64,000 nucleotides of DNA. Source: Candidatus Moraniibacteriota bacterium. GTDB lineage: Bacteria; Patescibacteriota; Minisyncoccia; Moranbacterales; UBA1568. The translations under genes and the position numbers were made by a program. The stretch covers positions 373,458-437,457 of the forward strand of contig JAUSGT010000002.1 of NCBI GenBank assembly GCA_030648835.1, in the 5' to 3' direction. The notes under the pieces were generated by a model. The model was not told the origin of the DNA. It saw only the letters and a program-made list of their open reading frames with translations, and did not search any database. This document shows, piece by piece, positions 3 to 14,080 of this stretch. Numbering within the stretch: the stretch's first letter is position 1; every line of letters begins with the position of its first letter.

Positions 3-2018
3 ATCTACGAGCAAGACTTTAAATATAAGAGGCGCTTTTCTCAGAAAGTTGTGATTCCAAAAATATCTAAGGAATACTCATTATTTTGGAGTAGTGTAGT
101 AGGTAATTACCCTAAAGAGTTTAGGAATATTATTTTAGAGGAATATAAGTCAGCATTAGATATAGAGATTCCAACGTTGAAACCAAAAATTCTCAGTAGT
201 CTTTATAAGAATAACAAACTAACCCCTAGAGCAATCTCACGTTTTGAGCTAGATAATTATTCTTCAGCTGGGCTTTTTACTGACACTATTTTTTTTATGG
301 ATGCCACTAAGGGGTTGGACATAATAGATTTTTGGAACTTAAGAGCTACAGGAAGAAAAGTTGTCCCATTTCCTATCCAGTATTCGAAAGATAAAGAAAT
401 TCAGAAAATTGTTCGTGATTTTATAAATATGTCTTATGGTTCTTTAAAGCACAACCCTAAAATATTCAATCACGCATCTTTTATAAAGAGCCGTAGCCTG
501 GAGATGAAACAGATGGAGCAAGCTGTTAAAAGTTTAAAAGTTAGAAAGAAATCTTCTCCAAAAGGTGGGCTATATTTTTCATTGCAATGGTGGTACCCAA
601 GAATGTGGCAAGAAAATTATGTTGATTCTGATAACGTAATACCTGTCGAGGTTTATAATAGTACTCAGAGCATAGATGTAATAGATGAAGATGGAACAAT
701 CTCTTTGCCACCAGTCTTACCTAAGTTTCTTGGGGAAAATCAATCTCTTTTCAGAAGAAAAGTAGGATATGTAAATGAGATAAACATTACCCCTTATAGT
801 TTTGGTTCAAAAATGATTTCTCAAGTATTTCCAATGGGTAAGGAGAACACTTTAAGAGTTATTGATCCTTTGGGGATGCCTGAACAATGGAGAGTAGGGA
901 AAAAGTCTTTAATAAGAGAAGTCTCTTATCAGCATTCCCAGAGGTGGGCTGTTCCTGATTCTCAAGATATATTTTTTTCTTGGCTTAAGGATCTTGGTTT
1001 TAGCGACCTCAAACTTTCTCCCCCTGGTATTTTAGCTAAACAGATTTTTTTTCAGTTAGATGGTTGGCTTAGGATTTTTGCTATTAATGGCATTCTAGAA
1101 CTTTTTGATTCAATGAGTAGGGGGTCTCATAGTGAAGTTGGTATGGCTGTAGGGGCTGTGAAGTCAAAGATCGAACTAATGGGTCGTGATACACAGTTCT
1201 TGGATTTTTTAAATACAAAGAAGATATTTAAAATTGGTGCTAATATTCAGTGCCCGAAGTGTTTCCGTCATTCTTGGTACAGTCTTAGTGATCTAAAAGA
1301 AGAAACAATTTGTTTGAAGTGTCTTAATTCGTTTCCTACAATTTCAAGTATTAATAATAAATGCTGGTATTATAAAACAGCCGGACCTTTCAGTATAGGA
1401 AATCACGCAGAGGGAGCGTATTCTGTCTTGCTATGCTATGATTTTTTCGTAAATGTTATGCATCTGAAAACTAGCGTTGCGTTTAGTTTTAATTTTGAGA
1501 AAAACGGGGAAAAACTTGAAGCTGATTTGGGCTTGTTATGGCTTGATAGTCTTTTTGACAATGTTTCAAATAATACGTTATTCGCAGAGTGTAAGTCTTA
1601 TAACAATTTTGAACAAGGAGATATAGATAGGATGGCTCTTTTAGTTCAAAATTTTCCTGGGGCTGTAATAGTCTTTTCCACACTTAAAAACGAGCTTACT
1701 GTCAACGAGAAAAAGATGATTAAGAAACTTGCAAAAAAATGTAGGAAGTATCATAAAAATAATCTTCCTATAAATCCGCTGCTTGTGCTTACCTCTAATG
1801 AATTACTTTCATTACATCACCCACCGTATTGTTGGAGGGGGAATAGCAAACTTACAGAGAGAGAAAAAAGTAGTATACACTCTTTGTATGATATATGTAA
1901 TGCGAGCCAAAAAATTTATCTTGATCTACCTTCTTGGTATTCTGAATGGGATGAAGAGTGGAAAAAGAAATCTGCTGTGAGAAAAAAGAAGCTGAATGCA
2001 GAATATGTTTGTGAGTAA
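3..2018 (+). CDS. Large hypothetical protein (at least 655 aa, probably 5'-partial). Contains a C4 zinc ribbon (CPKC...CLKC). Lies in the AT-rich island.
   Basis: Frame-3 ORF is open from position 3; the ORF track start at 51 is a GTG. No upstream stop within the window. CxxC-x17-CxxC motif. No recognisable catalytic motif. Confidence 0.45.
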   Translation: MYEQDFKYKRRFSQKVVIPKISKEYSLFWSSVVGNYPKEFRNIILEEYKSALDIEIPTLKPKILSSLYKNNKLTPRAISRFELDNYSSAGLFTDTIFFMDATKGLDIIDFWNLRATGRKVVPFPIQYSKDKEIQKIVRDFINMSYGSLKHNPKIFNHASFIKSRSLEMKQMEQAVKSLKVRKKSSPKGGLYFSLQWWYPRMWQENYVDSDNVIPVEVYNSTQSIDVIDEDGTISLPPVLPKFLGENQSLFRRKVGYVNEINITPYSFGSKMISQVFPMGKENTLRVIDPLGMPEQWRVGKKSLIREVSYQHSQRWAVPDSQDIFFSWLKDLGFSDLKLSPPGILAKQIFFQLDGWLRIFAINGILELFDSMSRGSHSEVGMAVGAVKSKIELMGRDTQFLDFLNTKKIFKIGANIQCPKCFRHSWYSLSDLKEETICLKCLNSFPTISSINNKCWYYKTAGPFSIGNHAEGAYSVLLCYDFFVNVMHLKTSVAFSFNFEKNGEKLEADLGLLWLDSLFDNVSNNTLFAECKSYNNFEQGDIDRMALLVQNFPGAVIVFSTLKNELTVNEKKMIKKLAKKCRKYHKNNLPINPLLVLTSNELLSLHHPPYCWRGNSKLTEREKSSIHSLYDICNASQKIYLDLPSWYSEWDEEWKKKSAVRKKKLNAEYVCE

Positions 2019-2423: not shown

Positions 2424-3230
2424 ATGAAAAAACAATTTACCATATTATCAATTATAGCTTTACTATTTTTGGGGAGCCTTGTTTTCGCTATCCCAACAGT
2501 ATCTTCTGCTGAATGTTGGATTTATGGATCGGCTGCAACGGAGGATTACTTAACGGGAGAGTGTAAATGCAGAGCGGGCTATATTATGAGTGATAGACAC
2601 TGCACAAGTGGGGCTACGGCGTGTCTTCTTAAAAATGGCGGATTTTCAACGTATAATGAATCGAAAGGTTCTTGTGAATGCCTTTTCGGCTATACGCTAG
2701 ATAACACTAATCGATGTGTTAAAAAACAAAATAATGTTTACTTTACATTAGAGGAATTAGATACGGGCAACAAGAAGGCGATAATTAGAAGTAACAGTGA
2801 TTTTAATTACTACTTAGTGATTTATAATACTGGTTGTTATGATCGTTCGTTTGAAAGGTATTTAGGAAAACAGATAGTTATAAATTTAGGAACGGATTAC
2901 TATTTGGATACTTTGGACAAAATAGTGTTACAAGATGACAATGAAACATGTGACATAATAAGTAGAGAAAAAGTTGATTCGAGTACAACTTTAAAAGAAG
3001 AAGGTGTGATAATCAAAAGAAGTTATCCATCAACAGTAGTTCCTGAAATTAAAAGAAAACAGGCTGCCATACCTGATACCAACAACAATCCAACAAAAAA
3101 TTCTTCAGTAGAAACTAATACAAATGAAAGTGGATTTAACCCATTTTTTGTTTTAGTTTTTATAATTCTTAGCGGAGGATTTGTCTGGATAATTTGGAAA
3201 TCAATGAAGAATAACATTGAAAGATTATGA
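2424..3230 (+). CDS. Secreted or surface-anchored Cys-rich protein with EGF-like CxC...C repeats (signal peptide plus C-terminal TM anchor)
   Basis: N-terminal signal peptide MKKQFTILSIIALLFLGSLVFAIPTVSSA. Repeated ECKCRAGY...C and SCECLFGY...C modules. C-terminal hydrophobic helix FFVLVFIILSGGFVWIIW. Stop overlaps the next start (ATGA). Confidence 0.6.
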   Translation: MKKQFTILSIIALLFLGSLVFAIPTVSSAECWIYGSAATEDYLTGECKCRAGYIMSDRHCTSGATACLLKNGGFSTYNESKGSCECLFGYTLDNTNRCVKKQNNVYFTLEELDTGNKKAIIRSNSDFNYYLVIYNTGCYDRSFERYLGKQIVINLGTDYYLDTLDKIVLQDDNETCDIISREKVDSSTTLKEEGVIIKRSYPSTVVPEIKRKQAAIPDTNNNPTKNSSVETNTNESGFNPFFVLVFIILSGGFVWIIWKSMKNNIERL

Positions 3231-4444
3231 AAAATAAAATATTCAGTTTAATCAAAGTTACCTCGCTGGTATTTTTAGTAATATTTATTGCACTAGTTAT
3301 TAATTATGCATTCCAATATTTCTGGATTTCTCCACGCTATTGGGGTGGCACAGTTACGCGATCAAACGAGAAAGTGGCAAATACTACGAAAAACTTTATT
3401 AACCTCTATGGATCTGAAAAATTTGCCGCGCTCAATCCTGCTCAAATCAAAAAAGATTATTCTGCGCTCGGCTATAATCTTTTTCTTGAGATAAGACGAA
3501 GTAATCAGGTTGTCGTACGTACTACCTATGCGATTTCTACTATCTTAGATGACCCAAAGACCCATTATACGATTGATTGTGCAATTCCCGGTGTGGGTGA
3601 AAGCTGCTCTATTTTAATTCTAGAGGATGTTAATTCTAAAGCACGTGATTTTAACGCAAATCATACCAATTGGTTGAAAAACTGGTTTATCGCCCCAAAA
3701 GATAATTTCGAAGATAAATATAATAACATTACATGGCCGTTTTTTGTAGCTTTGAGTAGCTCTTCATTGATTGCGACTATTATTCTTGGTTGGTATTTTT
3801 ATGCTAACAAGAAAAAAAGAATATTTCGGGAAAAAGAAGAAGAAAGTCAGAAACTTGAAGAACATATAATAGAGCTTCATCAGATTTTAAGTAATACAAA
3901 AGAGGAAGCTGAAACGGCGAGAGTTGAACTAGACAGGCTTAATTCAGACACAACAACAAACACACAAGAAAATGAGTCTGAAAAGCAGAGACTGCATGAA
4001 AGGGTTAATGAATTAGAAGCCGAGAAGAAAGAGGTAGATGAGGAGGTATTAGTATTTATTGACATTCGGGCAATAGAGAGAGCTATGCGCAATATAATTC
4101 ACAAAAAACTGTCTCAGAGATACCCCCATGGGAATTATTGGGATGTCGCAATTCCAAATGACATAAGAGAACGACTAAGGGATCGTTTAACTTGGCTTAA
4201 GGAGCAAGACAACAGAAAAAGGATTGATGAAACCTATTTCGGCGAGTGCAGAGATATTATAAGGTACAATTATGGTTTATTTGTGGGTATATTTGGGAGA
4301 AAAGATGACGCAATGTCGTATTTCAGAATACTGATTAATACCAGGAATGCACTAGCTCATGACAGAGAAAACAGTGATTTGAGATATATACCTAACGCCA
4401 TAGAATGGGCAAAAAGAAAACTGGAAATAAACAACGATGCATAG
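3227..4444 (+). CDS. Membrane-anchored (2 TM) coiled-coil protein with a C-terminal DUF4145/HEPN-like domain (Rx4H motif RNALAH). Putative RNase-type effector.
   Basis: TM helices near residues 10-35 and about 165-190. Charged coiled-coil (EEESQKLEEH...ELEAEKKEVDEE). C-terminus IDIRAIERAMRNIIHKKL ... FRILINTRNALAHD matches DUF4145/HEPN signatures. Translationally coupled to the flanking genes. Confidence 0.55.
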   Translation: MKNKIFSLIKVTSLVFLVIFIALVINYAFQYFWISPRYWGGTVTRSNEKVANTTKNFINLYGSEKFAALNPAQIKKDYSALGYNLFLEIRRSNQVVVRTTYAISTILDDPKTHYTIDCAIPGVGESCSILILEDVNSKARDFNANHTNWLKNWFIAPKDNFEDKYNNITWPFFVALSSSSLIATIILGWYFYANKKKRIFREKEEESQKLEEHIIELHQILSNTKEEAETARVELDRLNSDTTTNTQENESEKQRLHERVNELEAEKKEVDEEVLVFIDIRAIERAMRNIIHKKLSQRYPHGNYWDVAIPNDIRERLRDRLTWLKEQDNRKRIDETYFGECRDIIRYNYGLFVGIFGRKDDAMSYFRILINTRNALAHDRENSDLRYIPNAIEWAKRKLEINNDA

Positions 4445-5909
4445 GGAGATACTAACTTTTATGGAAAGTACACTTTTTATTACGCCGAGTAGACCACTTG
4501 ATGAAATAAGCCGGCTTATTGGCAATGGGCTAAAAAAGAACGGCCTTATCGAAAAAGGAAATCCGCGAAGAGCGAATACTCGTTTTAAATTATCTGAGAA
4601 TGATTACTTTGTAGGGTTTTCTTGGTGTTACGAAACTATTCCTGATAGTGTAGTAATCCTTCTGGAAATCTCAAAATACTATGAAGAAGAGGAGAGAAAG
4701 AAGGATACCCCATCTAAGTTAACCAAGCCTGAAATAATCAACTATGCCAAAAGCTTTAAGAAATATATTGAATCTGAACAACTGCCAATATCAGAGGTGA
4801 AAATAAAACAATTTAAATTATCGAAGTCTTTGTCTGTAGAATATGAACTGGGTAATAAAATTGTTTCGCCATCAAAGAGGGGGGCATTGCATAACCCATT
4901 TGAACTTAGAGCGTTGCCGGAATCAATTCGTGTATATTGGCCTGCGGGGTCTCTTAACGAAAGTGATCGGGCGTGTAGAATGCTTGCCGATAGTTTGATA
5001 AGATTCGGCGTTAGGGGGGCAAGAATGTTCCCAGAACTTTATAATAATCAAACGCTACCTTTACCGGATAATGATTCTTTTGAGTGTATAATTATTATTC
5101 CTAATATTGAGGATGAATTAGCAAAGCCACTTATTGTAGAATTAAAGAAACGACCCAGGGGCATACATATATTTGATTTTGATGATAATGGCAATCAATA
5201 CAAATTTGACAATTTGGCCGCTGGTATTTTATATAATAGTGGCAGTGAACTTTGGAGAGTTCATGGTTTGGATCAAAATAACTCCATATATGTTGGTATT
5301 GACTTAGGTCACGACCCCAAACTAAGAAAGTCTAAAATATGTATGACTTTTATTGACAAGAATGGTCGGGAGCTTTCTGAGCATAGGTATATTGCAGAGG
5401 ACTTACCTTTGAATGAAAAACAACAACTGATAGGTATTCTTACTGATAAGTTAGAAAAAATTCAAAAAGAAAATGGATTTGAAAACGTTATTATTCACAA
5501 AGATGGCCGAATTCTGGAAAATCACGATACGCTTTATTACACACTAAAACAAAAATTTGGAAGCGTCTCGCTTATTGAAGTAGTAAAGTCAAATTCAGCC
5601 TTTATTCTAGATCCAGAATCTAAAATGGGTGATATTTTTGATTTTGGAAATTTTATACTTTTACAAACGTTACCATTTAACCACCTTGGGAAATGTACTG
5701 AGCCTATAAAAATTAAGATACTGAAATCCGATTTAGATAGGATGTTTCTTATTGACAATGTATTTAAACTTTCGAAGGCTTTTTGCGGAGATTCATTATA
5801 CGCAGACAAGAAATTACCAATTACAACACATATTGCTGATCGATTCTCATCATTCCAAACAGGTAAGACGTTACAGTCGTTTAATATTGCGAAAAAGTGG
5901 ATAAAATAA
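4437..5909 (+). CDS. Short prokaryotic Argonaute (MID-PIWI, about 480-490 aa). PIWI motifs GIDLGHD, IIHKDGR, IEVVKS and SLYADKK are present.
   Basis: Motif-level match to Argonaute PIWI. GIDLGHD matches the GxDVxH beta-strand that carries the first catalytic Asp. VIIHKDGR matches IHRDGR. SLIEVVKSNSAFIL matches the VEVVKSGN segment. FILLQTLPF...GKCTEP matches FYLxSQ..GTxRP. SLYADKKL matches YYADxxA, which carries the last catalytic residue. A preceding Rossmann-like MID segment (CIIIIPN ... NQYKFDNLAAGILYNSGSELW) is present. An alternative start at 4461 has an AGGGAG RBS. Confidence 0.65.
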   Translation: MHREILTFMESTLFITPSRPLDEISRLIGNGLKKNGLIEKGNPRRANTRFKLSENDYFVGFSWCYETIPDSVVILLEISKYYEEEERKKDTPSKLTKPEIINYAKSFKKYIESEQLPISEVKIKQFKLSKSLSVEYELGNKIVSPSKRGALHNPFELRALPESIRVYWPAGSLNESDRACRMLADSLIRFGVRGARMFPELYNNQTLPLPDNDSFECIIIIPNIEDELAKPLIVELKKRPRGIHIFDFDDNGNQYKFDNLAAGILYNSGSELWRVHGLDQNNSIYVGIDLGHDPKLRKSKICMTFIDKNGRELSEHRYIAEDLPLNEKQQLIGILTDKLEKIQKENGFENVIIHKDGRILENHDTLYYTLKQKFGSVSLIEVVKSNSAFILDPESKMGDIFDFGNFILLQTLPFNHLGKCTEPIKIKILKSDLDRMFLIDNVFKLSKAFCGDSLYADKKLPITTHIADRFSSFQTGKTLQSFNIAKKWIK

Positions 5910-5956
5910 AAATATGAAAAATAAACTTCTCTATTTTGCGGTAAACTTTTAAATAA

Positions 5957-6463
5957 GTGAGACAGAAAAACATGGAAACAAAAGATCCTATTCAAAAAGA
6001 TTCAGGAAAAAAGTGGCCGAAAACACTGCTTAAATATTTGTTTGCCATAATCATCATTTTCGTATTGCTGTTTAGTTTGGTCGGTTCTTACGAAGATCTA
6101 CTTGATGTGTCCTTTTTGGTCTTCGTTCTTGCGGTGATTACCGTTATAGCACTTATAGCCGGGGGTTTGCTGACAGGGTATGAACATGTTAAGCCGATAG
6201 CAGATAAATTTGAGGACGAGAATGTATGGCAGTATATCAGAATGGCGATCATCAGATTATTGATTGGTGGGTTCATAATTTATTGGATGATTGGTGGCGA
6301 GGGATTTCTTAGTCTTGACAGCCTCGAAAATATCGTTCATAATCTTGGGAAATTTTCTCTCTGGATTTTTGCAATATATTTTGTTCTGGCCGGGCTAAAG
6401 AGTCTCTATTGGGTTATTCGAGAAGTAATAAAAAATTTAACGAGTGATGGAGACGAGGATTGA
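5957..6463 (+). CDS. Small 4-TM membrane protein, possibly part of the pAgo module
   Basis: Four hydrophobic helices. Acidic C-terminus. Begins 48 bp downstream of the pAgo gene. Confidence 0.5.
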   Translation: MRQKNMETKDPIQKDSGKKWPKTLLKYLFAIIIIFVLLFSLVGSYEDLLDVSFLVFVLAVITVIALIAGGLLTGYEHVKPIADKFEDENVWQYIRMAIIRLLIGGFIIYWMIGGEGFLSLDSLENIVHNLGKFSLWIFAIYFVLAGLKSLYWVIREVIKNLTSDGDED

Positions 6464-6478
6464 TTTCAAGAGATAAAG

Positions 6479-7420
6479 ATGAACCAGGATAATTTCGTTA
6501 AAATTGAAGGGTGTTTCAGACAAGCTAGAATCACTAGCGAGCTTGCGGATTCTTCGGTTGCAAAATATCGTGATTCAATTAAGAAATTCTTTTCTGTCAT
6601 TGGCAACAAAGATTTTGAATTACTGGTAATCGTTGACTTTGAGAACTTGATTCTAAAAATGCGGGATAATGGTGCGGGTAATTCCAGGATTGCCAACGTA
6701 ATTTCTGCTGTTAAGTGGCTTACTAAAAAACTTCAAGATGGGGGAAAAATACCAAAAACGCTTGATTTAGAGAAGGTAAAAAAACCGAAAATTGAAAGGA
6801 AGGAAGTTGAATATTTGAACGATCAAGAAATAAAAAGGCTCATTGACTGTATTTTAGACGATCTTTCAAAAGGGGAATTCATAAGGAAGGTGAGGATAAT
6901 GGCGCTTGTAGTGTTTTTACTAGAAAGCGGTGCAAGAATTGGCGAAGCCCTTTCAATCAAAATTGAAAAAATTGACTGGGATAACAATGAAATCCCCATT
7001 GTTGGAAAAGGGAAAAAACCGAGAACGTTGTTTTTCAGGGATCGTTCTAAATATTGGTTTCAAAAGTATTTATCCATAAGAAAAAGTGATAGCGAGTTTT
7101 TGTTTGTTACTCTCAGTGGCTTGGCTAAATGGTCACAAACAGACGTAGGGAGATCTTTTAGACGGTATAGGAACTTGTCCGGAATAAAGAAAAAGCTTGT
7201 TTTGCATACACTGAGGCATACTACTGCTACCCAACTATCATTTAAGGGCGCTCAATTTAACGAAATACAAGCCCTTTTGGGTCACGCTCGACTAGAAACC
7301 ACAGTAAAGTATTATATCGGCGCGGCAGGAAAACAGAGGGTCAAGAAAATGATGCAGGATAAATACTATGATTTCATTCCTGAATCAGTGTTGAAAGTTA
7401 ATAAATCAGTGAAGGCATAG
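6479..7420 (+). CDS. Tyrosine-type site-specific recombinase/integrase (XerC/XerD-like)
   Basis: SGARIGEAL (Arg box I). HTLRHTTATQL (HxxR). LLGHARLETTVKYY (catalytic Tyr region). Confidence 0.8.
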   Translation: MNQDNFVKIEGCFRQARITSELADSSVAKYRDSIKKFFSVIGNKDFELLVIVDFENLILKMRDNGAGNSRIANVISAVKWLTKKLQDGGKIPKTLDLEKVKKPKIERKEVEYLNDQEIKRLIDCILDDLSKGEFIRKVRIMALVVFLLESGARIGEALSIKIEKIDWDNNEIPIVGKGKKPRTLFFRDRSKYWFQKYLSIRKSDSEFLFVTLSGLAKWSQTDVGRSFRRYRNLSGIKKKLVLHTLRHTTATQLSFKGAQFNEIQALLGHARLETTVKYYIGAAGKQRVKKMMQDKYYDFIPESVLKVNKSVKA

Positions 7421-8462: not shown

Positions 8463-8475
8463 ATAGAGACACCAA

Positions 8476-8639
8476 GCTGTCTCATATGGTAAAATAAGAC
8501 AGGGTCTGTCCTGTGTCTCATTTGTCTCGTTTTACCCCCAAAACCGCGACCCGAGAGCCTCAATCCACTCGTCGGCCAAGACCTCCAAGAAATCCCTCAA
8601 CGGCTTGATTTCTCAAAGTTCTAGACCGATGACGCCCGC
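8476..8639. repeat. About 164 bp GC-rich intergenic repeat, copy 1. Contains the hairpin GGTAAAATaAGACA...TGTCTCGTTTTACC.
   Basis: Near-identical to 9891..10054. Its 3' half matches 13986..14080. Confidence 0.85.
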
Positions 8640-8861: not shown

Positions 8862-9842
8862 ATGAGTAAGGAAAAGAAATTCGGAATTATCGCTGGAGCA
8901 GTTCTCATTGCTATTGCGGGTCTGTTTATAATGAACCGTGTATTTTTCAACGCACCTCAATCTCAGGAAGAAAAGACAGTTTTTATTATGAATCGTAGTC
9001 AAACCGAAACACAAACATTGGATAAATTAAAAACTCAAGGATTGATTAGAAATAAATGGGCATTTAAGTTGGTTCTATTTCTCAAGCATAACAAAATTGA
9101 GCCTGGCGGTTATACTGTGTCAAAAAGTATGAGCGCTTGGCAAATCGCCAACAAACTTATTTCTGCTCCTGATATGAAATGGGTGGTAATCCCCGAGGGA
9201 CTGCGAAAGGAGCAGATTGGGGAAAAACTGGCGGAGACATTCGATTGGAGTGACGAAGAACTTGGTAAATGGAATACGGAATACACTAAAATGAGGATAG
9301 ATTATATCGAGGGGACGTATTTCCCTGATACCTATCTTATTCCGGTAAATGAAGGCGGATTCAAAATGGCTGAACGAATGACGAGGCGTTTTGATGAAAA
9401 ATTTGCTCCGTATATCAGCCAGTTTGCCCAACAAAATATCCTGTGGACTACTGGGCTCAAATTAGCTTCAATTATCCAGAGAGAAGCCGGGGGGAAAGAC
9501 GATATGCCCCTTATCGCTGGAGTCATGTGGAACAGGCTCGATCAAAATATGAATTTAGAAATAGACGCGACTGTCCAGTATGCACGAGGGAAAGCCGAGG
9601 CTGGCTGGTGGGCACCCGTTACATCTGGAGGTATACAAAGCATCGATTCTCCATACAATACTTACAAAAACAAGGGACTACCTCCCTTTCCTATTTCTAA
9701 TCCAGGGATTGATGCGATTGAAGCGGTCTTACATCCAGTTGAAACTGATTGTCTATACTACCTTCACGACAGCGATCGGCAAATCCACTGCGCTAAGACG
9801 TTTGAAGAACACAAGGAAAATATAGAGAAGTACTTGCGGTAA
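8862..9842 (+). CDS. mltG: Endolytic murein transglycosylase MltG (YceG-like)
   Basis: N-terminal TM. YceG-like motifs (GGYTV, EGLRKEQI, SIIQREAG, GVMWNRL, LEIDATVQY). Confidence 0.75.
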   Translation: MSKEKKFGIIAGAVLIAIAGLFIMNRVFFNAPQSQEEKTVFIMNRSQTETQTLDKLKTQGLIRNKWAFKLVLFLKHNKIEPGGYTVSKSMSAWQIANKLISAPDMKWVVIPEGLRKEQIGEKLAETFDWSDEELGKWNTEYTKMRIDYIEGTYFPDTYLIPVNEGGFKMAERMTRRFDEKFAPYISQFAQQNILWTTGLKLASIIQREAGGKDDMPLIAGVMWNRLDQNMNLEIDATVQYARGKAEAGWWAPVTSGGIQSIDSPYNTYKNKGLPPFPISNPGIDAIEAVLHPVETDCLYYLHDSDRQIHCAKTFEEHKENIEKYLR

Positions 9843-9890
9843 TCACATGAAAATGTACCTCTACGGAAACATCCAAAAGGGAGACATCCC

Positions 9891-10054
9891 GCTGTCCCAT
9901 ATGGTAAAATGAGACAAGGTCTGTCCTGTGTCTCATTTGTCTCGTTTTACCCCCAAAACCGCGACCCGAGAGCCTCAATCCACTCGTCGGCCAAGACCTC
10001 CAAGAAATCCCTCAACGGCTTGATTTCTCAAAGTTCTAGACCGATGACGCCCGC
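9891..10054. repeat. About 164 bp GC-rich intergenic repeat, copy 2
   Basis: Near-identical to 8476..8639 (a few substitutions). Confidence 0.85.
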
Positions 10055-10301: not shown

Positions 10302-11288
10302 ATGAAAAAATTAATTGTACATAAAGTAAATATTTCTCATCAGCGTCTTGTTGAACTATCTAAACTAGCCGATCAGGCAAAGCCTTTTTACGATTGGGTT
10401 GAAAAGGTAGCAAAAAAAGTTACTGGATCGCACAGAAGTTTGAACGAGATAATTTTTCAGTCATCAAAAAAAGAAATTCATACCATAATTAAAAGTTGTT
10501 ATTCCAATGGAGCGGAAACAAAACCTTTTTTGTTTGATGGCGTTGGTAGAGTTTATCCTCACTTTAAGGCTTGTTTTTACTTTTTTGCTTGGATAGTTCG
10601 AGACGCTCCACAACAAAGACTTTCCCCCTTAATTAGTCGTATGCAAAAAGCCGACAAGGTTTCTAAAATTACGGCGGAAACAGATGCGCTTGTAAAATTA
10701 ATTTTTGAATACAAATCTGTAGTAAAAAGTTTTGAATGGCAAGCTGTGCGAGAAGTGATAATTGATAGGTTGGAGGGGTCTAGGCGAAGTATTCGCGGAC
10801 ATGCTTTAGAGGCGAGCGCGCGAACAAGCTTGGTTACCGCTATTCAAAATTATTATTCAATTCACGGAGATTACGGGAAATTTAAGAAAGTTGAAATTGC
10901 TGATAAGCAGATAAAAATAGGTAGGCACACTGTAGACGTTTCCGCTTTGCTCTATCCTAAAAATGAATCAGTTCCTATTCGACTGCTTATCCCAATAAAG
11001 ACAAGGGAGACCGAAGGCGGTGGTCATTCTCATATCTTCACTAGAGATGTAATTTCCGCGATTACTGATATTAAAGCCGAAAAGAAAAAAGATCATATTA
11101 TAGTTGTGATTGTTGCCGAAAATTGGTCTCCAAGAGAAATCCAGACAATAGATGATGCGATTGATTTGATTTTTCATTTCAATATGAGTCCGAATGCATT
11201 TGAGGGCTTTGACGAGAGCGCTCAAGTTACATTGAATCAGTATATTGAAAAAATATTTAGCGAATATGAAAAGCAAGCACGAAAATAA
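10302..11288 (+). CDS. Hypothetical protein, putative restriction endonuclease partner of the downstream methyltransferase
   Basis: Overlaps the MTase gene by 44 nt in the same operon. No nuclease motif could be confirmed by eye. Confidence 0.35.
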   Translation: MKKLIVHKVNISHQRLVELSKLADQAKPFYDWVEKVAKKVTGSHRSLNEIIFQSSKKEIHTIIKSCYSNGAETKPFLFDGVGRVYPHFKACFYFFAWIVRDAPQQRLSPLISRMQKADKVSKITAETDALVKLIFEYKSVVKSFEWQAVREVIIDRLEGSRRSIRGHALEASARTSLVTAIQNYYSIHGDYGKFKKVEIADKQIKIGRHTVDVSALLYPKNESVPIRLLIPIKTRETEGGGHSHIFTRDVISAITDIKAEKKKDHIIVVIVAENWSPREIQTIDDAIDLIFHFNMSPNAFEGFDESAQVTLNQYIEKIFSEYEKQARK

Positions 11289-12150
11289 AATACTACTTGG
11301 TGATGTACGGGAAGTGATAAAAATCTTTCCCGATCTGCACTTTCAAGCTATTATCACTAGCCCGCCATATTTTGGTCATAGAAAATATTCAGAAAAAAGT
11401 TCTAGTGGCGAGGTGGGTCGGGAATCAAACCCAGAACAGTATATTGAGAATATTAGGCAAATTTTCAACGGGCTTAGGCCAAAATTAAAAGACAATGGAT
11501 TATTGTGGTTAAACCTTGGCGATACCTACAGAGAGAAAACCCTACTTGGTATTCCGTGGCGGACTGCTCTGGCTTTGCAATCTGACGGCTGGATACTCCG
11601 AAGTGATATTATTTGGCGAAAAACAAATGCTATGCCGTCGTCCATCAAAGATCGACCTACTACTGATCATGAGTATGTATTTATGTTTTCCAAAACTCCA
11701 GAATATCTTTATTACGCGGACGCAATTAGAGAGCCACATGTTACGTTTTCTGATAAATCCAAAATGAAGGGTGGAAGAAATCATTTTGGGAAACGAGACG
11801 GTACACCGGAAAACGGAAAGAATGGCGGCAACTCAAATCTTCACAATGGAAGGTGGGATCAAGCTTTTCACCCAAATGGAAGGAATAAAAGAACTGTTTG
11901 GGATATTTCTCTAGGCAAGTTTAGAGATACGCATTTTGCGGTTTATCCTGAAAAGCTTGTAGAAACTTGTATTCTTGCATCTACAAAAGAGGGCGATTTG
12001 GTTTTTGACCCATTTATGGGTTCTGGTACAACAGCATTGGTGGCGTGTAAGCTAGGGAGAAATTTTACTGGTGTTGAGTTAGTCGAAAAATATAAAGACA
12101 TGGCGGAAAAAAGAGTCTCGCCTTATCTTAAACAAGCAAAATTAGTATGA
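11245..12150 (+). CDS. DNA methyltransferase, beta-class N4-cytosine/N6-adenine (motif IV SPPY before motif I FMGSGTT)
   Basis: IITSPPYFG (D/S-PPY). DPFMGSGTTALVA (FxGxG SAM-binding motif) near the C-terminus. Confidence 0.85.
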   Translation: MKKYLANMKSKHENKILLGDVREVIKIFPDLHFQAIITSPPYFGHRKYSEKSSSGEVGRESNPEQYIENIRQIFNGLRPKLKDNGLLWLNLGDTYREKTLLGIPWRTALALQSDGWILRSDIIWRKTNAMPSSIKDRPTTDHEYVFMFSKTPEYLYYADAIREPHVTFSDKSKMKGGRNHFGKRDGTPENGKNGGNSNLHNGRWDQAFHPNGRNKRTVWDISLGKFRDTHFAVYPEKLVETCILASTKEGDLVFDPFMGSGTTALVACKLGRNFTGVELVEKYKDMAEKRVSPYLKQAKLV

Positions 12151-13208
12151 ATGAAAGACAACAGATAATCAAAGAAATTGAGGATTTGCGAGGTTCGCGC
12201 GTTATAACCTACATAACGAGCGATAGACCCGGAATAATCTCAATGATTGATCCAATGGATTTACGAGAGATTTTTGATCATCTGAAAGATATCCCCAAAG
12301 ATACAAAAATTGATTTATACATTTACAGTCGCGGTGGAAATTCCGTAACTGCGTGGGCTCTCGTAAATCTTATTCGCGAACACACTAAAGATTTTAATGT
12401 TCTTGTACCTTATCGCGCACACAGTTGTGCTACTGCTATTGCAATTGGGTCAAATGAAATAGTTATGGGACGAATGGGAGAGTTAGGACCAATAGACCCA
12501 ACACTTTCTGCAATAGTTGATAATAAAAAAGTTGATGTCTCAACCGAAGATTTATCTAGCTACATTGCTTTTTTGAAAGAAAAGTTTGGTATCAATCGTC
12601 AAAAGCATACGATTCAAGCATTTAGCCAACTTGCCGAAAACGTAAAACCTCTTTTGCTTGGTAGAGCGTACCGCTCGTATCTCAAAGCAACTGATGACGC
12701 GATAAAACTTTTGCGACTACATTTGAGTGACGAAAGGAAAATCAAAAGCATTGCTGAACATCTTGTTGAGAAACTTTATGCCCACGATCATATTATCTCT
12801 CGTAGGGAAGCTAAAGAAAAAATTGGCCTGAACGTTCTTTGCGCTGAAGGAGATTTGGAAAAGAAAATGTGGGAGTTATACCTCAAATACGAGGATATGC
12901 TAAAATTAAAAGAACCATACAAGGATGAACCAACGACAGGAAACGATCCAAGAATTTTGCCGGTTACTGTCGTTGAAAGTATAACTATGACTAGCAAAAA
13001 GAACGTTCGACAATTCATTAAGGAAGTCAGCTTGCCACAGCAAAATATGGCGGCGATGCCTGTTATTGTTGGTGATAAGCCCGCGCTCATGTTCCCAAAC
13101 GGACAAGCTATTCAGATTGTAACAGAGGGGCAAACTGTTGTTTTAGATCAGAAGTTTTTTGCTAAAACGGAAACTATAGTTTGGGAACAAGAGGTAGTAA
13201 CGGAATAA
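12147..13208 (+). CDS. ClpP/SppA-superfamily (S14/S49-like) serine peptidase with a C-terminal extension
   Basis: IDLYIYSRGGNSVTAWALVNLIRE ... YRAHSCATAIAIGSNEIVMG aligns with the ClpP core (DIYLYINSPGG ... GQAASMG). ATGA overlap with the MTase stop. Confidence 0.5.
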   Translation: MNERQQIIKEIEDLRGSRVITYITSDRPGIISMIDPMDLREIFDHLKDIPKDTKIDLYIYSRGGNSVTAWALVNLIREHTKDFNVLVPYRAHSCATAIAIGSNEIVMGRMGELGPIDPTLSAIVDNKKVDVSTEDLSSYIAFLKEKFGINRQKHTIQAFSQLAENVKPLLLGRAYRSYLKATDDAIKLLRLHLSDERKIKSIAEHLVEKLYAHDHIISRREAKEKIGLNVLCAEGDLEKKMWELYLKYEDMLKLKEPYKDEPTTGNDPRILPVTVVESITMTSKKNVRQFIKEVSLPQQNMAAMPVIVGDKPALMFPNGQAIQIVTEGQTVVLDQKFFAKTETIVWEQEVVTE

Positions 13209-13985: not shown

Positions 13986-14080
13986 TGCGACCCGACCTTT
14001 CCAATCCGTTCGTCGGCCAAGACCCCTAAGAAATCCCTCAACGGCTTGATTTCTCAAAGTTCTAGACCGATGACGCCTGC
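13986..14080. repeat. Partial (3' half) copy of the 164 bp repeat, copy 3
   Basis: Matches the 3' roughly 95 bp of the copies at 8476 and 9891 with a few substitutions. Confidence 0.8.

What the first reader, a model, noticed from the sequence alone, without database searches (positions are those of the whole stretch)
2424..6463. Candidate novel Argonaute-based defence module: surface Cys-rich protein, membrane-anchored DUF4145/HEPN protein, short pAgo (MID-PIWI) and 4-TM protein
Three genes are translationally coupled (ATGA overlap at 3227; 8 nt overlap at 4437) and a fourth follows after 48 bp. The module sits in an AT-rich island next to a tyrosine recombinase. The 490 aa protein has clear PIWI motifs and a MID-like Rossmann segment but no N/PAZ region, so it is a short pAgo. 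Known short pAgos pair with APAZ proteins fused to SIR2, TIR or Mrr-like effectors (SPARSA/SPARTA/SPARDA). Here the immediate upstream partner is instead a 2-TM coiled-coil protein ending in a DUF4145/HEPN-like putative RNase domain, and no APAZ-like gene is adjacent. A membrane-tethered HEPN effector coupled to a guide-dependent PIWI sensor would be an undescribed effector combination. The flanking 4-TM protein recalls membrane effectors of other pAgo systems (SiAgo-Aga2; long-B pAgo plus TM effector).
Basis: partly seen in the sequence, partly recalled or inferred. Interest (0 to 1): 0.9.

Follow-up and report, generated by a model that had tools for sequence, protein, structure and literature searches.

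The report
Compact Argonaute with membrane HEPN partner
An unusually small Argonaute gene that still has all its cutting residues, found only in ultra-small (CPR) bacteria, sits directly behind a gene for a membrane-anchored putative RNase; it looks like a new variant of known Argonaute immune systems, not a wholly new kind.

Summary
The four ORFs, the ATGA overlap, the low-GC island and the adjacent tyrosine recombinase are all real. The 490/482-aa protein is a genuine PIWI protein (PADLOC pAgo E 2e-20; family profile vs CpAgo 6e-27). It is not a canonical short pAgo. Its DEDD catalytic tetrad is intact and invariant, its PIWI is closest to active long-A pAgos (CpAgo, KmAgo, CbAgo, MpAgo), and it has no APAZ partner. 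It is a truncated, probably active, long-A-like pAgo. Its clade is tiny and appears CPR-restricted, with about six clusters among 1.84 billion representatives. The 405-aa partner has two TM segments, a coiled coil and a C-terminal HEPN-like domain. That domain matches HEPN_Swt1 (E 7.5e-5, below Pfam's cutoff) and PDC-M34B (1e-10) and carries an Rx4H motif; DUF4145 is not matched. In all four informative loci a gene of about 400 aa abuts the pAgo start, but it belongs to three unrelated types, so it is an exchangeable cassette. The Cys-rich 268-aa and 4-TM 168-aa genes recur nowhere, so the conserved core is two genes. HEPN-pAgo pairings are already described (AmAgo-Agap; long-B effectors). Verdict: new variant of a known kind, interest about 0.6.

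The parts
3227..4444 (+). Partner gene (405 aa; NCBI Q7S04_02975): TM1 - ectodomain of about 130 aa - TM2 - coiled coil - HEPN-like domain
   Evidence: ORF. TM segments at residues 3-35 and 168-191. PADLOC PDC-M34B E 1.1e-10 over residues 231-381. Only itself found in the 5.8-billion-protein word-index search.
3233..3799 (+). Membrane part of the partner: TM1 (3233-3331), predicted extracytoplasmic loop (3332-3727), TM2 (3728-3799)
   Evidence: Kyte-Doolittle windows. KKKR follows TM2, which fits a cytoplasmic C-terminus by the positive-inside rule (inference). No family match for the loop.
3809..4051 (+). Coiled-coil / long alpha-helical linker of the partner (residues 195-275)
   Evidence: AF2 predicts long helices at 181-240 and 247-298, the best-scoring part of the model (pLDDT 59-84). 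The sequence is highly charged. Weak coiled-coil-type Pfam and NCBIfam hits.
4052..4441 (+). HEPN-like C-terminal domain of the partner (residues 276-405), with the Rx4H motif R373-NALA-H378 at nt 4343-4360
   Evidence: Domain-only Pfam scan: HEPN_Swt1 E 7.5e-5 (23.4 bits, cutoff 27.5) and HEPN_Apea E 3e-3. Motif read from the sequence. Fold not confirmed.
4437..5909 (+). Truncated long-A-like pAgo (490 aa from ATG 4437; 482 aa from ATG 4461 as annotated, Q7S04_02980)
   Evidence: PADLOC pAgo/PprPIWI E 2.4e-20. NCBIfam argonaute E 1e-12. PDB CpAgo and MpAgo. Foldseek top hits are all Argonautes.
4461..4796 (+). N-terminal domain of the pAgo, origin unknown (predicted beta-alpha-beta4-alpha)
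   Evidence: Secondary structure from the AF2 model. No similarity to any region of 45 long pAgos. Low-confidence KA1-like fold hits.
4914..5186 (+). MID-like Rossmann segment without the canonical Y-x3-K...Q 5'-phosphate pocket residues
   Evidence: The family profile aligns to CpAgo from residue 443 onward. beta-alpha-beta pattern. Pocket columns: family invariants are D247, K256 and N259 instead. The segment alone is not significantly similar to long pAgo MIDs.
5187..5876 (+). PIWI domain with an intact DEDD tetrad: D289 (5301-5303), E327 (5415-5417), D356 (5502-5504), D468 (5838-5840)
   Evidence: Invariant in all family members. Aligned to CpAgo D544/E580/D614/D730; the PDB mutant 9jh8 differs from 9jh7 exactly at the HRDG aspartate. 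Coordinates.
2424..3230 (+). 268-aa secreted/anchored Cys-rich protein, translationally coupled (ATGA) to the partner gene; membership in the system not supported
   Evidence: Signal-peptide-like N-terminus, C-terminal TM and 10 Cys in two C-x16-17-CxC-x3-GY modules. Only sub-threshold EGF-like hits. No homologue in any related locus.
5957..6463 (+). 168-aa protein with about 4 TM segments (likely start ATG 5972); membership not supported
   Evidence: No hit in Pfam, PADLOC, NCBIfam or PHROGs. Absent from related loci.
6479..7420 (+). Xer-like tyrosine recombinase at the right end of the low-GC island (context, not part of the system)
   Evidence: Pfam Phage_integrase E 3e-30. NCBIfam XerA/XerC/XerD all below their cutoffs. 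GC profile.

Best explanation
The functional unit is a two-gene Argonaute module carried on a low-GC mobile island of a Candidatus Moranbacteria (CPR) genome.

Gene 2 is a very compact pAgo: an unknown N-terminal domain, a reduced MID and a PIWI domain, with no N, L1 or PAZ. It descends from the catalytically active long-A branch and keeps a complete DEDD slicer site. It most likely binds a small guide through a non-canonical, phosphate-independent MID pocket and recognises complementary invader nucleic acid, which it can cut itself.

Gene 1 is co-translated with gene 2. It is an exchangeable partner cassette of about 400 aa. In this genome it is a membrane-anchored coiled-coil protein ending in a cytoplasmic HEPN RNase domain. 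I propose that the helical region docks the pAgo at the membrane, and that target recognition by the pAgo releases or activates the HEPN RNase. Collateral RNA cleavage and growth arrest would then back up direct slicing.

Shown: gene order and coupling, PIWI homology, the intact tetrad, the TM/coiled-coil/HEPN-like architecture, and conservation of the partner position with swapping of its sequence. Inferred: physical interaction, guide type, activation of HEPN by the pAgo, and a defence function.
For: PIWI homology and long-A affinity.

Invariant DEDD aligned to the CpAgo catalytic residues.

No Y-x3-K/Q pocket.

A partner gene of about 390-420 aa lies immediately upstream on the same strand in 4 of 4 informative loci, with spacing of -8/+16, +33, +1 and -7 nt.

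There are three unrelated partner types. The window pAgo is 69% identical to the L001 pAgo, which carries a different partner. The L001 and L004 partners are 57% identical although their pAgos are only 36% identical. This is the cassette-swapping pattern typical of effectors.

The TM + coiled-coil + variable C-terminal domain layout is shared by partner types I and II. It parallels the published alpha-helical domain + TM/TIR/HEPN/PD-(D/E)XK effectors of long-B pAgos (PMC10954474).

HEPN-like domain with Rx4H.

Active pAgos that use accessory effectors have a precedent in NpAgo-PLD (PMC11442185).

Defence-island context: a type II R-M system 4 kb downstream; MTases, DUF6119 and PDDEXK_4 in L004; GmrSD and UvrD in L006.
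Against: Effector-dependent pAgos are normally catalytically dead, and here the tetrad is intact.

The HEPN assignment is below Pfam's curated cutoff, and the fold could not be confirmed (pLDDT 46.6; Foldseek uninformative).

No interaction evidence exists.

Only four loci carry context, and three of them come from one sample (SRR13727527).

The type III partner (L006) has no TM segments or coiled coil, so membrane tethering is not universal in the family.

The pAgo model is poor (pLDDT 49.5), so the MID and N-terminal domain assignments are soft.
Confidence: 0.4

Rival explanations
1. Guide-biogenesis model (AmAgo/Agap-like). The HEPN RNase does not kill the cell. It cuts transcripts into 5'-OH RNA fragments that load into the phosphate-independent MID pocket of the active pAgo, which then slices complementary invader DNA or RNA.
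For: The layout is the same as published for AmAgo-Agap: the HEPN gene lies upstream and overlaps the pAgo by 4 or 8 nt, the tetrad is intact, the MID lacks [Y/R/H]KQK, and HEPN has Rx4H (PMC11162769; window). The nearest PIWI relatives include MpAgo and MpAgo-like '...LANN' proteins that use 5'-OH RNA guides.
Against: The closest pAgo relatives (69% and 36% identity) carry non-HEPN partners. A dedicated guide-making RNase should be conserved with its pAgo, as Agap is. Membrane anchoring and a 130-aa ectodomain are unexplained by this model. No sequence comparison with Agap was possible.
Confidence: 0.25
2. The surface Cys-rich protein, the membrane HEPN protein, a short inactive-sensor-type pAgo and the 4-TM effector act together as one system.
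For: All four genes are co-oriented. The 268-aa and 405-aa genes share an ATGA overlap. No terminator-like site was found on the + strand between 2424 and 7420.
Against: The 268-aa and 168-aa proteins have no homologue beside any other family member. In L004 the flanks are DUF6119 and a reverse-strand gene, and in L006 they are a helicase and a 524-aa protein. Neither protein has a family hit. The pAgo is not of the short, inactive type.
Confidence: 0.1
3. Independent neighbours. The 268-aa + 405-aa pair is a separate membrane HEPN toxin or Abi-type element, and the pAgo works alone like other long-A nucleases. Their adjacency reflects packing within a defence island.
For: [quoted passage not shown] The 405-aa protein matches a stand-alone PADLOC candidate family, PDC-M34B. 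The partner sequence is not conserved across the family.
Against: A gene of about 400 aa abuts the pAgo start in every informative locus, with spacing of -8 to +33 nt, across pAgos as divergent as 30% identity and two genetic codes. That is unlikely without functional linkage.
Confidence: 0.12
4. Split-Argonaute model. The upstream gene supplies the missing N/L1/L2 (APAZ-like) half, as AfAgo-N does for AfAgo.
For: Upstream position and tight coupling resemble fAfAgo (PMC10954474). The soluble 418-aa type III partner in L006 is of unknown fold.
Against: The window partner is fully accounted for by TM1, ectodomain, TM2, coiled coil and HEPN, which leaves no room for an N-L1-L2 domain. There are no APAZ or N-domain hits.
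Confidence: 0.05

Closest known systems
AmAgo-Agap-HEPN system (Alteromonas macleodii; Agapov et al. 2024, PMC11162769)
   Same: A HEPN (Rx4H) gene lies immediately upstream of the pAgo gene and overlaps it by 4-8 nt. The pAgo has an intact catalytic tetrad. The MID lacks the [Y/R/H]KQK 5'-phosphate motif.
   Different: AmAgo is a full-length long-A pAgo, whereas this pAgo lacks N, L1 and PAZ. Agap is soluble and conserved across its clade. Here the partner is membrane-anchored with a coiled coil, and close relatives carry non-HEPN proteins in its place. Homology between the two HEPN proteins was not tested.
Long-B pAgo systems with Af1317-type effectors (alpha-helical domain + TM/TIR/HEPN/PD-(D/E)XK; BPAM/BPAN/BPAS; PMC10954474 section 26)
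   Same: The partner is built from a helical region plus a swappable effector domain, with HEPN and TM among the options. The cassette-exchange pattern is the same.
   Different: Those pAgos are catalytically inactive long-B proteins and the effector lies downstream. Here the PIWI is DEDD-intact and long-A-like, and the partner lies upstream. No sequence relationship was shown.
Short pAgo systems SPARTA / SPARSA / SPARDA
   Same: The pAgo is small (about 480 aa), has no PAZ, and is co-encoded with a partner.
   Different: Short pAgos have a dead PIWI and an APAZ-fused TIR, SIR2 or nuclease effector. Here the tetrad is intact, no APAZ is detected, and the profile similarity to SPARTA pAgos is marginal (about 1e-4 versus 6e-27 for CpAgo).
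Truncated long pAgos / pseudo-short pAgos (31 cases in Ryazansky 2018, PMC6299218; AfAgo)
   Same: A long-clade PIWI that has lost the PAZ-containing half.
   Different: AfAgo is long-B and inactive, and is completed by an N-L1-L2 protein. This family is long-A-like and DEDD-intact, has a novel N-terminal domain, and is paired with a membrane/HEPN partner.
MpAgo and MpAgo-like MID-OH pAgos
   Same: They are among the best PIWI matches, and their MID pocket is also non-canonical.
   Different: MpAgo is full length (639 aa), has a DEDN tetrad and is CRISPR-linked. No CRISPR or cas genes were seen next to this gene.
NpAgo-AgaP (PLD) system (PMC11442185) and SiAgo-Aga1-Aga2 (PMC11788926)
   Same: NpAgo shows that an active pAgo can use an accessory effector. 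SiAgo has a membrane-associated effector (the Aga2 membrane role is from my own knowledge).
   Different: The effector families differ (PLD; Aga2), and SiAgo is inactive. No homology was tested.

Membership tests
Argonaute/PIWI superfamily | PIWI (RNase H-like) domain detectable by profile | tested here: met
   PADLOC pAgo models down to E 2.4e-20. NCBIfam argonaute E 1e-12. Family profile vs CpAgo E 6e-27. Foldseek top 26 hits are Argonautes. Pfam Piwi gives no hit for the window protein and only a weak one for P0007.
Argonaute/PIWI superfamily | MID domain preceding PIWI | tested here: inconclusive
   The profile alignment extends into the CpAgo MID (443 onward), and a Rossmann-like beta-alpha-beta pattern is predicted. 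The segment alone is not significantly similar to long pAgo MIDs, and the model is low confidence.
Short pAgo clade (SPARTA/SPARSA/SPARDA type) | Catalytically inactive PIWI (substituted DEDX tetrad) | tested here: not met
   D289/E327/D356/D468 are invariant and aligned to the CpAgo catalytic residues.
Short pAgo clade (SPARTA/SPARSA/SPARDA type) | APAZ-containing partner or fusion | tested here: not met
   No APAZ or effector-APAZ hit for any of 9 neighbouring proteins in Pfam, PADLOC or NCBIfam. The partner's architecture leaves no room for APAZ.
Short pAgo clade (SPARTA/SPARSA/SPARDA type) | MID-PIWI sequence clusters with short pAgos | tested here: not met
   Profile vs PDB: SPARTA short pAgos E 1.5e-4 to 1.8e-4, versus long-A CpAgo 6e-27, KmAgo 2.5e-21, CbAgo 4e-21, MpAgo 1.4e-18 and AaAgo 1.7e-17. 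No formal tree was built.
Long-A pAgo clade | Intact DEDX tetrad and closest PIWI similarity to long-A nucleases | tested here: met
Long-A pAgo clade | Full N-L1-PAZ-L2-MID-PIWI architecture | tested here: not met
   Length is 464-505 aa. The N-terminal 150 aa match no region of 45 long pAgos. The protein is therefore a truncated long-A-like pAgo.
AmAgo/Agap-HEPN type system | HEPN (Rx4H) gene upstream, overlapping an active pAgo whose MID lacks YKQK | tested here: met
   compared with PMC11162769.
AmAgo/Agap-HEPN type system | Partner homologous to Agap and conserved throughout the pAgo clade | tested here: not met
   Conservation fails: L001/L004 and L006 carry unrelated partners. Homology to Agap itself could not be tested because no Agap sequence was available.
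HEPN superfamily (405-aa partner) | Rx4-6H catalytic motif | tested here: met
   R373-N-A-L-A-H378 within ...FRILINTRNALAHD....
HEPN superfamily (405-aa partner) | Profile match above the curated threshold | tested here: inconclusive
   HEPN_Swt1 E 7.5e-5 at 23.4 bits (cutoff 27.5). HEPN_Apea E 3e-3 at 18.4 bits (cutoff 24.4), domain-only query. PADLOC PDC-M34B E 1e-10, but that family's fold is undocumented. DUF4145 is not matched.
HEPN superfamily (405-aa partner) | All-alpha HEPN fold | tested here: inconclusive
   The AF2 single-sequence model has pLDDT 46.6. Helices are predicted at 311-328, 335-348 and 384-399, but the motif region is unmodelled. Foldseek returns only coiled-coil noise.
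Long-B pAgo + Af1317-type effector systems | Inactive long-B pAgo with a downstream alpha-helical + effector protein | tested here: not met
   The PIWI is active-type, the partner lies upstream, and there is no PDB-profile hit to RsAgo or AfAgo. Only the helical-plus-effector architecture is analogous.

The most novel reading that the evidence does not exclude
This CPR-restricted family is a self-sufficient minimal slicer of about 465-505 aa, the smallest catalytically competent Argonautes known. It is recruited to the cell membrane by exchangeable partner cassettes. In this genome the membrane-bound HEPN RNase both senses events at the envelope through its ectodomain (possibly together with the coupled Cys-rich surface protein) and feeds 5'-OH RNA guides to the pAgo at the site of nucleic-acid entry. 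That would couple surface sensing to guide-directed cleavage, a mode of Argonaute immunity not yet described.
Probability: 0.15. Interest if true: 0.85.

Novelty: new variant of a known kind. Interest (0 to 1): 0.6.

Why it matters
If the pAgo is active, it would be the most compact programmable Argonaute nuclease known: about 480 aa, against 640-770 aa for characterised active pAgos. That is of practical interest. It would also contradict the working rule that PAZ-less, partner-associated pAgos are catalytically dead sensors.

The family also gives a first view of Argonaute immunity in CPR/Patescibacteria. These are ultra-small episymbionts with few recognised defence systems, yet this genome carries two paralogues on one 636-kb contig.

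The upstream gene keeps its position while its sequence is swapped, giving a natural set of variants (HEPN, an unknown alpha/beta domain, a soluble protein). These could be used to test how accessory proteins plug into an Argonaute.

Tried and rejected
- **Genome and metagenome scans.** Two genome-contig scans with the family alignments found nothing, so the MAG is not a GTDB representative. Two attempts with alignment A3 failed because no stretch was conserved enough. The metagenome scans found nothing or only three distant PIWI-only hits; where the whole gene is visible (L008, L010) these are long pAgos of about 650 aa and not family members.
- **Mobile-element collections.** The viral-contig scan found nothing. 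Phage tblastn gave one marginal PIWI hit. Plasmid tblastn with the HEPN region found nothing.
- **Structure prediction.** Both models are low confidence: pAgo pLDDT 49.5 from a 5-sequence alignment and partner pLDDT 46.6 from a single sequence. The fold search on the partner was uninformative. I used the pAgo fold search only as soft support.
- **Partner homology.** Tests by BLASTP, hhalign and a PDB profile search were all negative. I rejected my initial impression that the C-terminal domain of the L001/L004 partner is DUF2325-like, because no Pfam, NCBIfam or PHROGs hit supports it.
- **Paralogue context.** The context of P0004 (Q7S04_01470) could not be retrieved. The look-up of the 405-aa protein returned only a 2.7-kb Logan contig identical to the window, so the island's left border remains unseen.
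- **N-terminal domain.** A profile of the pAgo N-terminus searched against 45 long pAgos gave no consistent hit.
- **Literature.** Searches for PDC-M34, for CPR/Patescibacteria Argonautes, and for pAgo + HEPN + membrane + coiled-coil found no description of this arrangement.
- **Neighbouring proteins.** The 655-aa and 259-aa proteins have no match in PDB, Pfam, PADLOC, NCBIfam or PHROGs.

Full report
**Observation.** The four co-oriented ORFs exist as described: 2424-3230 (268 aa), 3227-4444 (405 aa), 4437-5909 (490 aa) and 5957-6463 (168 aa).
- The ATGA overlap at 3227-3230 is visible in the sequence, as is the overlap of ATG 4437 with the TAG stop at 4442-4444.
- A Xer-like tyrosine recombinase follows 16 nt after the fourth ORF (Pfam Phage_integrase E 3e-30; all Xer equivalog scores are below cutoff).
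- Region 1 to about 7500 is 34-35% GC, against 44-50% for most of the window. The left border of the island lies outside the window.
- The source is a 635,596-bp contig of a Candidatus Moranbacteria MAG. The 405-aa and pAgo genes are annotated as hypothetical proteins Q7S04_02975 and Q7S04_02980.

Two details need correction.
- Homologues begin at MEST..., NCBI annotates 482 aa, and an AGGGAG motif lies 12 nt before ATG 4461. The pAgo may therefore start at 4461, leaving a 16-nt gap instead of an 8-nt overlap.
- The fourth ORF probably starts at ATG 5972.

**The Argonaute.** Pfam gives no hit. The evidence that this is a PIWI protein comes from elsewhere:
- PADLOC pAgo models match residues 245-473 down to E 2.4e-20.
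- NCBIfam argonaute matches at E 1e-12.
- phmmer finds CpAgo and MpAgo in PDB.
- A profile of the family scores CpAgo 6e-27, KmAgo 2.5e-21, CbAgo 4e-21, MpAgo 1.4e-18 and AaAgo 1.7e-17. TtAgo scores only 2.6e-5 and SPARTA short pAgos about 1.5e-4. RsAgo and AfAgo are not hit at all.
- Even the poor AF2 model (pLDDT 49.5) retrieves Argonautes as its top 26 Foldseek hits, with MpAgo first.

The catalytic tetrad is complete and invariant in every family member. The residues are D289 (GIDLGH), E327 (LNEK), D356 (HKDG) and D468 (HIAD). They align to CpAgo D544/E580/D614/D730, and the catalytic-mutant PDB entry 9jh8 differs from 9jh7 at exactly the HRDG aspartate.

According to the literature, all predicted pAgo nucleases belong to long-A, and long-B and short pAgos carry tetrad substitutions (PMC11162769). 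This protein is therefore not a canonical short pAgo. It is a truncated long-A-like pAgo, a category known in principle (31 PAZ-less long pAgos in PMC6299218).

In the MID-like segment the Y-x3-K and Q residues that are visible in the CpAgo-like sequences (YNPFK...PSQ) are absent. The family invariants there are D247, K256 and N259.

The first 150 residues or so have a predicted beta-alpha-beta4-alpha arrangement. They show no similarity to any part of 45 long pAgos. Low-confidence KA1-like fold hits are only a lead.

**Rarity and distribution.** An exhaustive HMMER search of 1.84 billion cluster representatives returned 74 hits. Only P0003 (the window's cluster), P0007, P0009, P0010, P0011 and a fragment match beyond the PIWI domain.
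- P0009 and P0010 carry Trp where the family has conserved Gly. The L006 genes hold 20-29 in-frame TGA codons each, and translation with code 25 restores the Gly residues.
- These two proteins therefore come from UGA=Gly lineages (Gracilibacteria/Absconditabacteria).
- The family thus appears confined to CPR bacteria.
- A 54%-identical paralogue (Q7S04_01470) lies on the same contig. Its context could not be retrieved.

**The partner.** The 405-aa protein has the following parts:
- TM segments at residues 3-35 and 168-191, around a loop of about 130 aa.
- Long, confidently helical, highly charged stretches between residues 181 and 298.
- A C-terminal domain that matches PADLOC PDC-M34B (E 1.1e-10).
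- Scanned alone, that domain matches Pfam HEPN_Swt1 (E 7.5e-5, 23.4 bits against a cutoff of 27.5) and HEPN_Apea (E 3e-3).
- It carries the motif R373-NALA-H378.

DUF4145 is not matched. The fold could not be confirmed. I consider the HEPN assignment probable but not proven.

**Conservation of the neighbourhood.** Every locus with upstream sequence has a gene of about 390-420 aa on the same strand abutting the pAgo start:
- window, with L011 as an identical contig: -8 or +16 nt;
- L001: +33 nt;
- L004 and L005: +1 nt;
- L006 and L007: -7 nt.

The partners fall into three types that are unrelated by BLASTP and hhalign:
- Type I (window): 2 TM, coiled coil, HEPN.
- Type II (L001, L004): 4-5 TM, coiled coil, and an unknown alpha/beta domain (GVxG...ETDY...KKWLIxGxHPH).
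- Type III (L006): a soluble 418-aa protein. Its operon also encodes a UvrD-like helicase and a 524-aa protein.

The window pAgo is 69% identical to the L001 pAgo, yet the two have different partners. The L001 and L004 partners are 57% identical although their pAgos share only 36% identity. So the position is conserved and the cassette is exchanged.

The 268-aa, 168-aa, 655-aa and 79-aa proteins have no counterpart in any related locus and no family hit. The conserved core is therefore two genes, not four.

**Mechanism.** Two published precedents frame the options.
- **AmAgo-Agap.** A HEPN RNase gene upstream overlaps an active long-A pAgo by 4-8 nt. That pAgo's MID lacks YKQK, and the RNase makes its 5'-OH guide RNAs (PMC11162769). 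The layout here is very similar.
[quoted passage not shown] The swappable-domain logic is the same.

The partner is replaced by non-HEPN proteins in close relatives, and two of the three types share the TM + coiled-coil + variable-domain plan. I therefore favour the effector/adaptor reading (confidence 0.4). In it, the pAgo, docked by the helical region at the membrane, recognises and can slice invader nucleic acid, and it activates the HEPN RNase as a second line of defence. An active pAgo that uses an accessory effector has a precedent in NpAgo-PLD (PMC11442185).

The guide-biogenesis reading (0.25) is the main rival.

**Comparison and novelty.** The gene is a member of the Argonaute superfamily.
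- It fails three defining tests for the short-pAgo clade: inactive PIWI, APAZ partner and sequence clustering.
- It meets the catalytic and similarity criteria of long-A but lacks the N-terminal half.
- It works most like either AmAgo-Agap or the long-B effector systems, without being a member of either.

I found no description of CPR Argonautes or of a membrane-anchored coiled-coil HEPN partner in the held literature. That library is incomplete.

I rate it a new variant of a known kind with interest 0.6.

**Limits.**
- Only four loci carry context, and three of them come from one sample (SRR13727527).
- Both structure models are poor.
- No interaction or activity data exist.
- The HEPN call is below the curated threshold.
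- The paralogue's context is unknown.

Noticed in passing
window 8466-8639, 9881-10054, about 13990-14080: A 174-nt direct repeat (97% identical) flanks the YceG/MltG gene (8862-9842). A third copy shares a near-identical core of about 95 nt; a 36-mer is exact at 8601, 10016 and 14042, with 0 expected by chance. All copies are intergenic on the + strand. There is no Rfam family. The fold z-scores are moderate (-2.4 on the + strand, -2.9 on the - strand), with a long hairpin in the core. Copies 2 and 3 bracket the R-M genes. The repeat could be att-like duplications from tandem island insertions or an unknown ncRNA/repeat element.
   Followed up: partly
L006 343-5816 (GCA_020049755.1); proteins P0009, P0010: The database proteins P0009 and P0010 have Trp at conserved Gly positions (HKDW, DFWNF). 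The L006 genes contain 20-29 in-frame TGA codons each, and code 25 (UGA=Gly) restores the motifs. These public protein predictions were made with the wrong genetic code.
   Followed up: yes
same MAG, locus tag Q7S04_01470 (outside the window); protein P0004: A second family member (505 aa, 54% identical) lies on the same 636-kb contig, about 150 genes away. That gives two copies of this rare pAgo in one very small genome. Its neighbours could not be retrieved.
   Followed up: partly
L001 7-1215 vs L004 8824-9999: The rates are discordant. The type II partners are 57% identical while the pAgos they precede are only 36% identical, which suggests recent exchange of the partner cassette between lineages living in the same sample (SRR13727527).
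   Followed up: partly
L006 343-5816: In the code-25 organism the pAgo ends a tightly packed four-gene array: a UvrD-like helicase (405 aa), a 524-aa unknown protein, the 418-aa partner and the pAgo, with gaps of 12, 15 and -7 nt. GmrSD and a full UvrD helicase lie nearby.
   Followed up: partly
L004 1-14052: The P0007 locus looks like a defence island. It holds two N6_N4 methyltransferases, a DUF6119 protein directly upstream of the partner, and a PDDEXK_4 nuclease-like protein downstream.
   Followed up: no
window 10302-13208: A type II restriction-modification pair (REase, PADLOC E 2.8e-84; N6_N4 MTase, Pfam E 7e-54, overlapping it) is followed by a ClpP-like SDH-type serine protease gene. 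All lie in a second lower-GC stretch (about 40%).
   Followed up: partly
window 51-2018 and 2066-2305: A 655-aa protein has no match in Pfam, PADLOC, PHROGs or PDB, and only a sub-threshold NCBIfam zinc-binding hit (E 0.013, residues 388-428). It contains a CPKC...CLKC zinc-ribbon-like motif and a D...AECK (ExK-like) motif that hints at a PD-(D/E)XK nuclease. A 79-aa ORF follows it in the same low-GC island. It may be a separate unknown defence gene.
   Followed up: partly
window 5908-5936 vs 3221-3249: Just after the pAgo stop, a 12-codon mini-ORF (ATGAAAAATAAACTT..., MKNKLLYFAVNF*) resembles the 5' end of the partner gene (MKNKIFSL...; 29 nt, 76% identical). It could be a scar of cassette exchange, or chance in AT-rich DNA.
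   Followed up: no
window 4461-4796 (pAgo N-terminal domain): The low-confidence model of the N-terminal 100 residues or so gives Foldseek hits to KA1 / AMPK-type beta-alpha-beta4-alpha domains (TM-score up to 0.71 relative to the target). KA1 domains bind acidic phospholipids (my own knowledge), which would fit a membrane-associated system, but the model is too weak to rely on.
   Followed up: no
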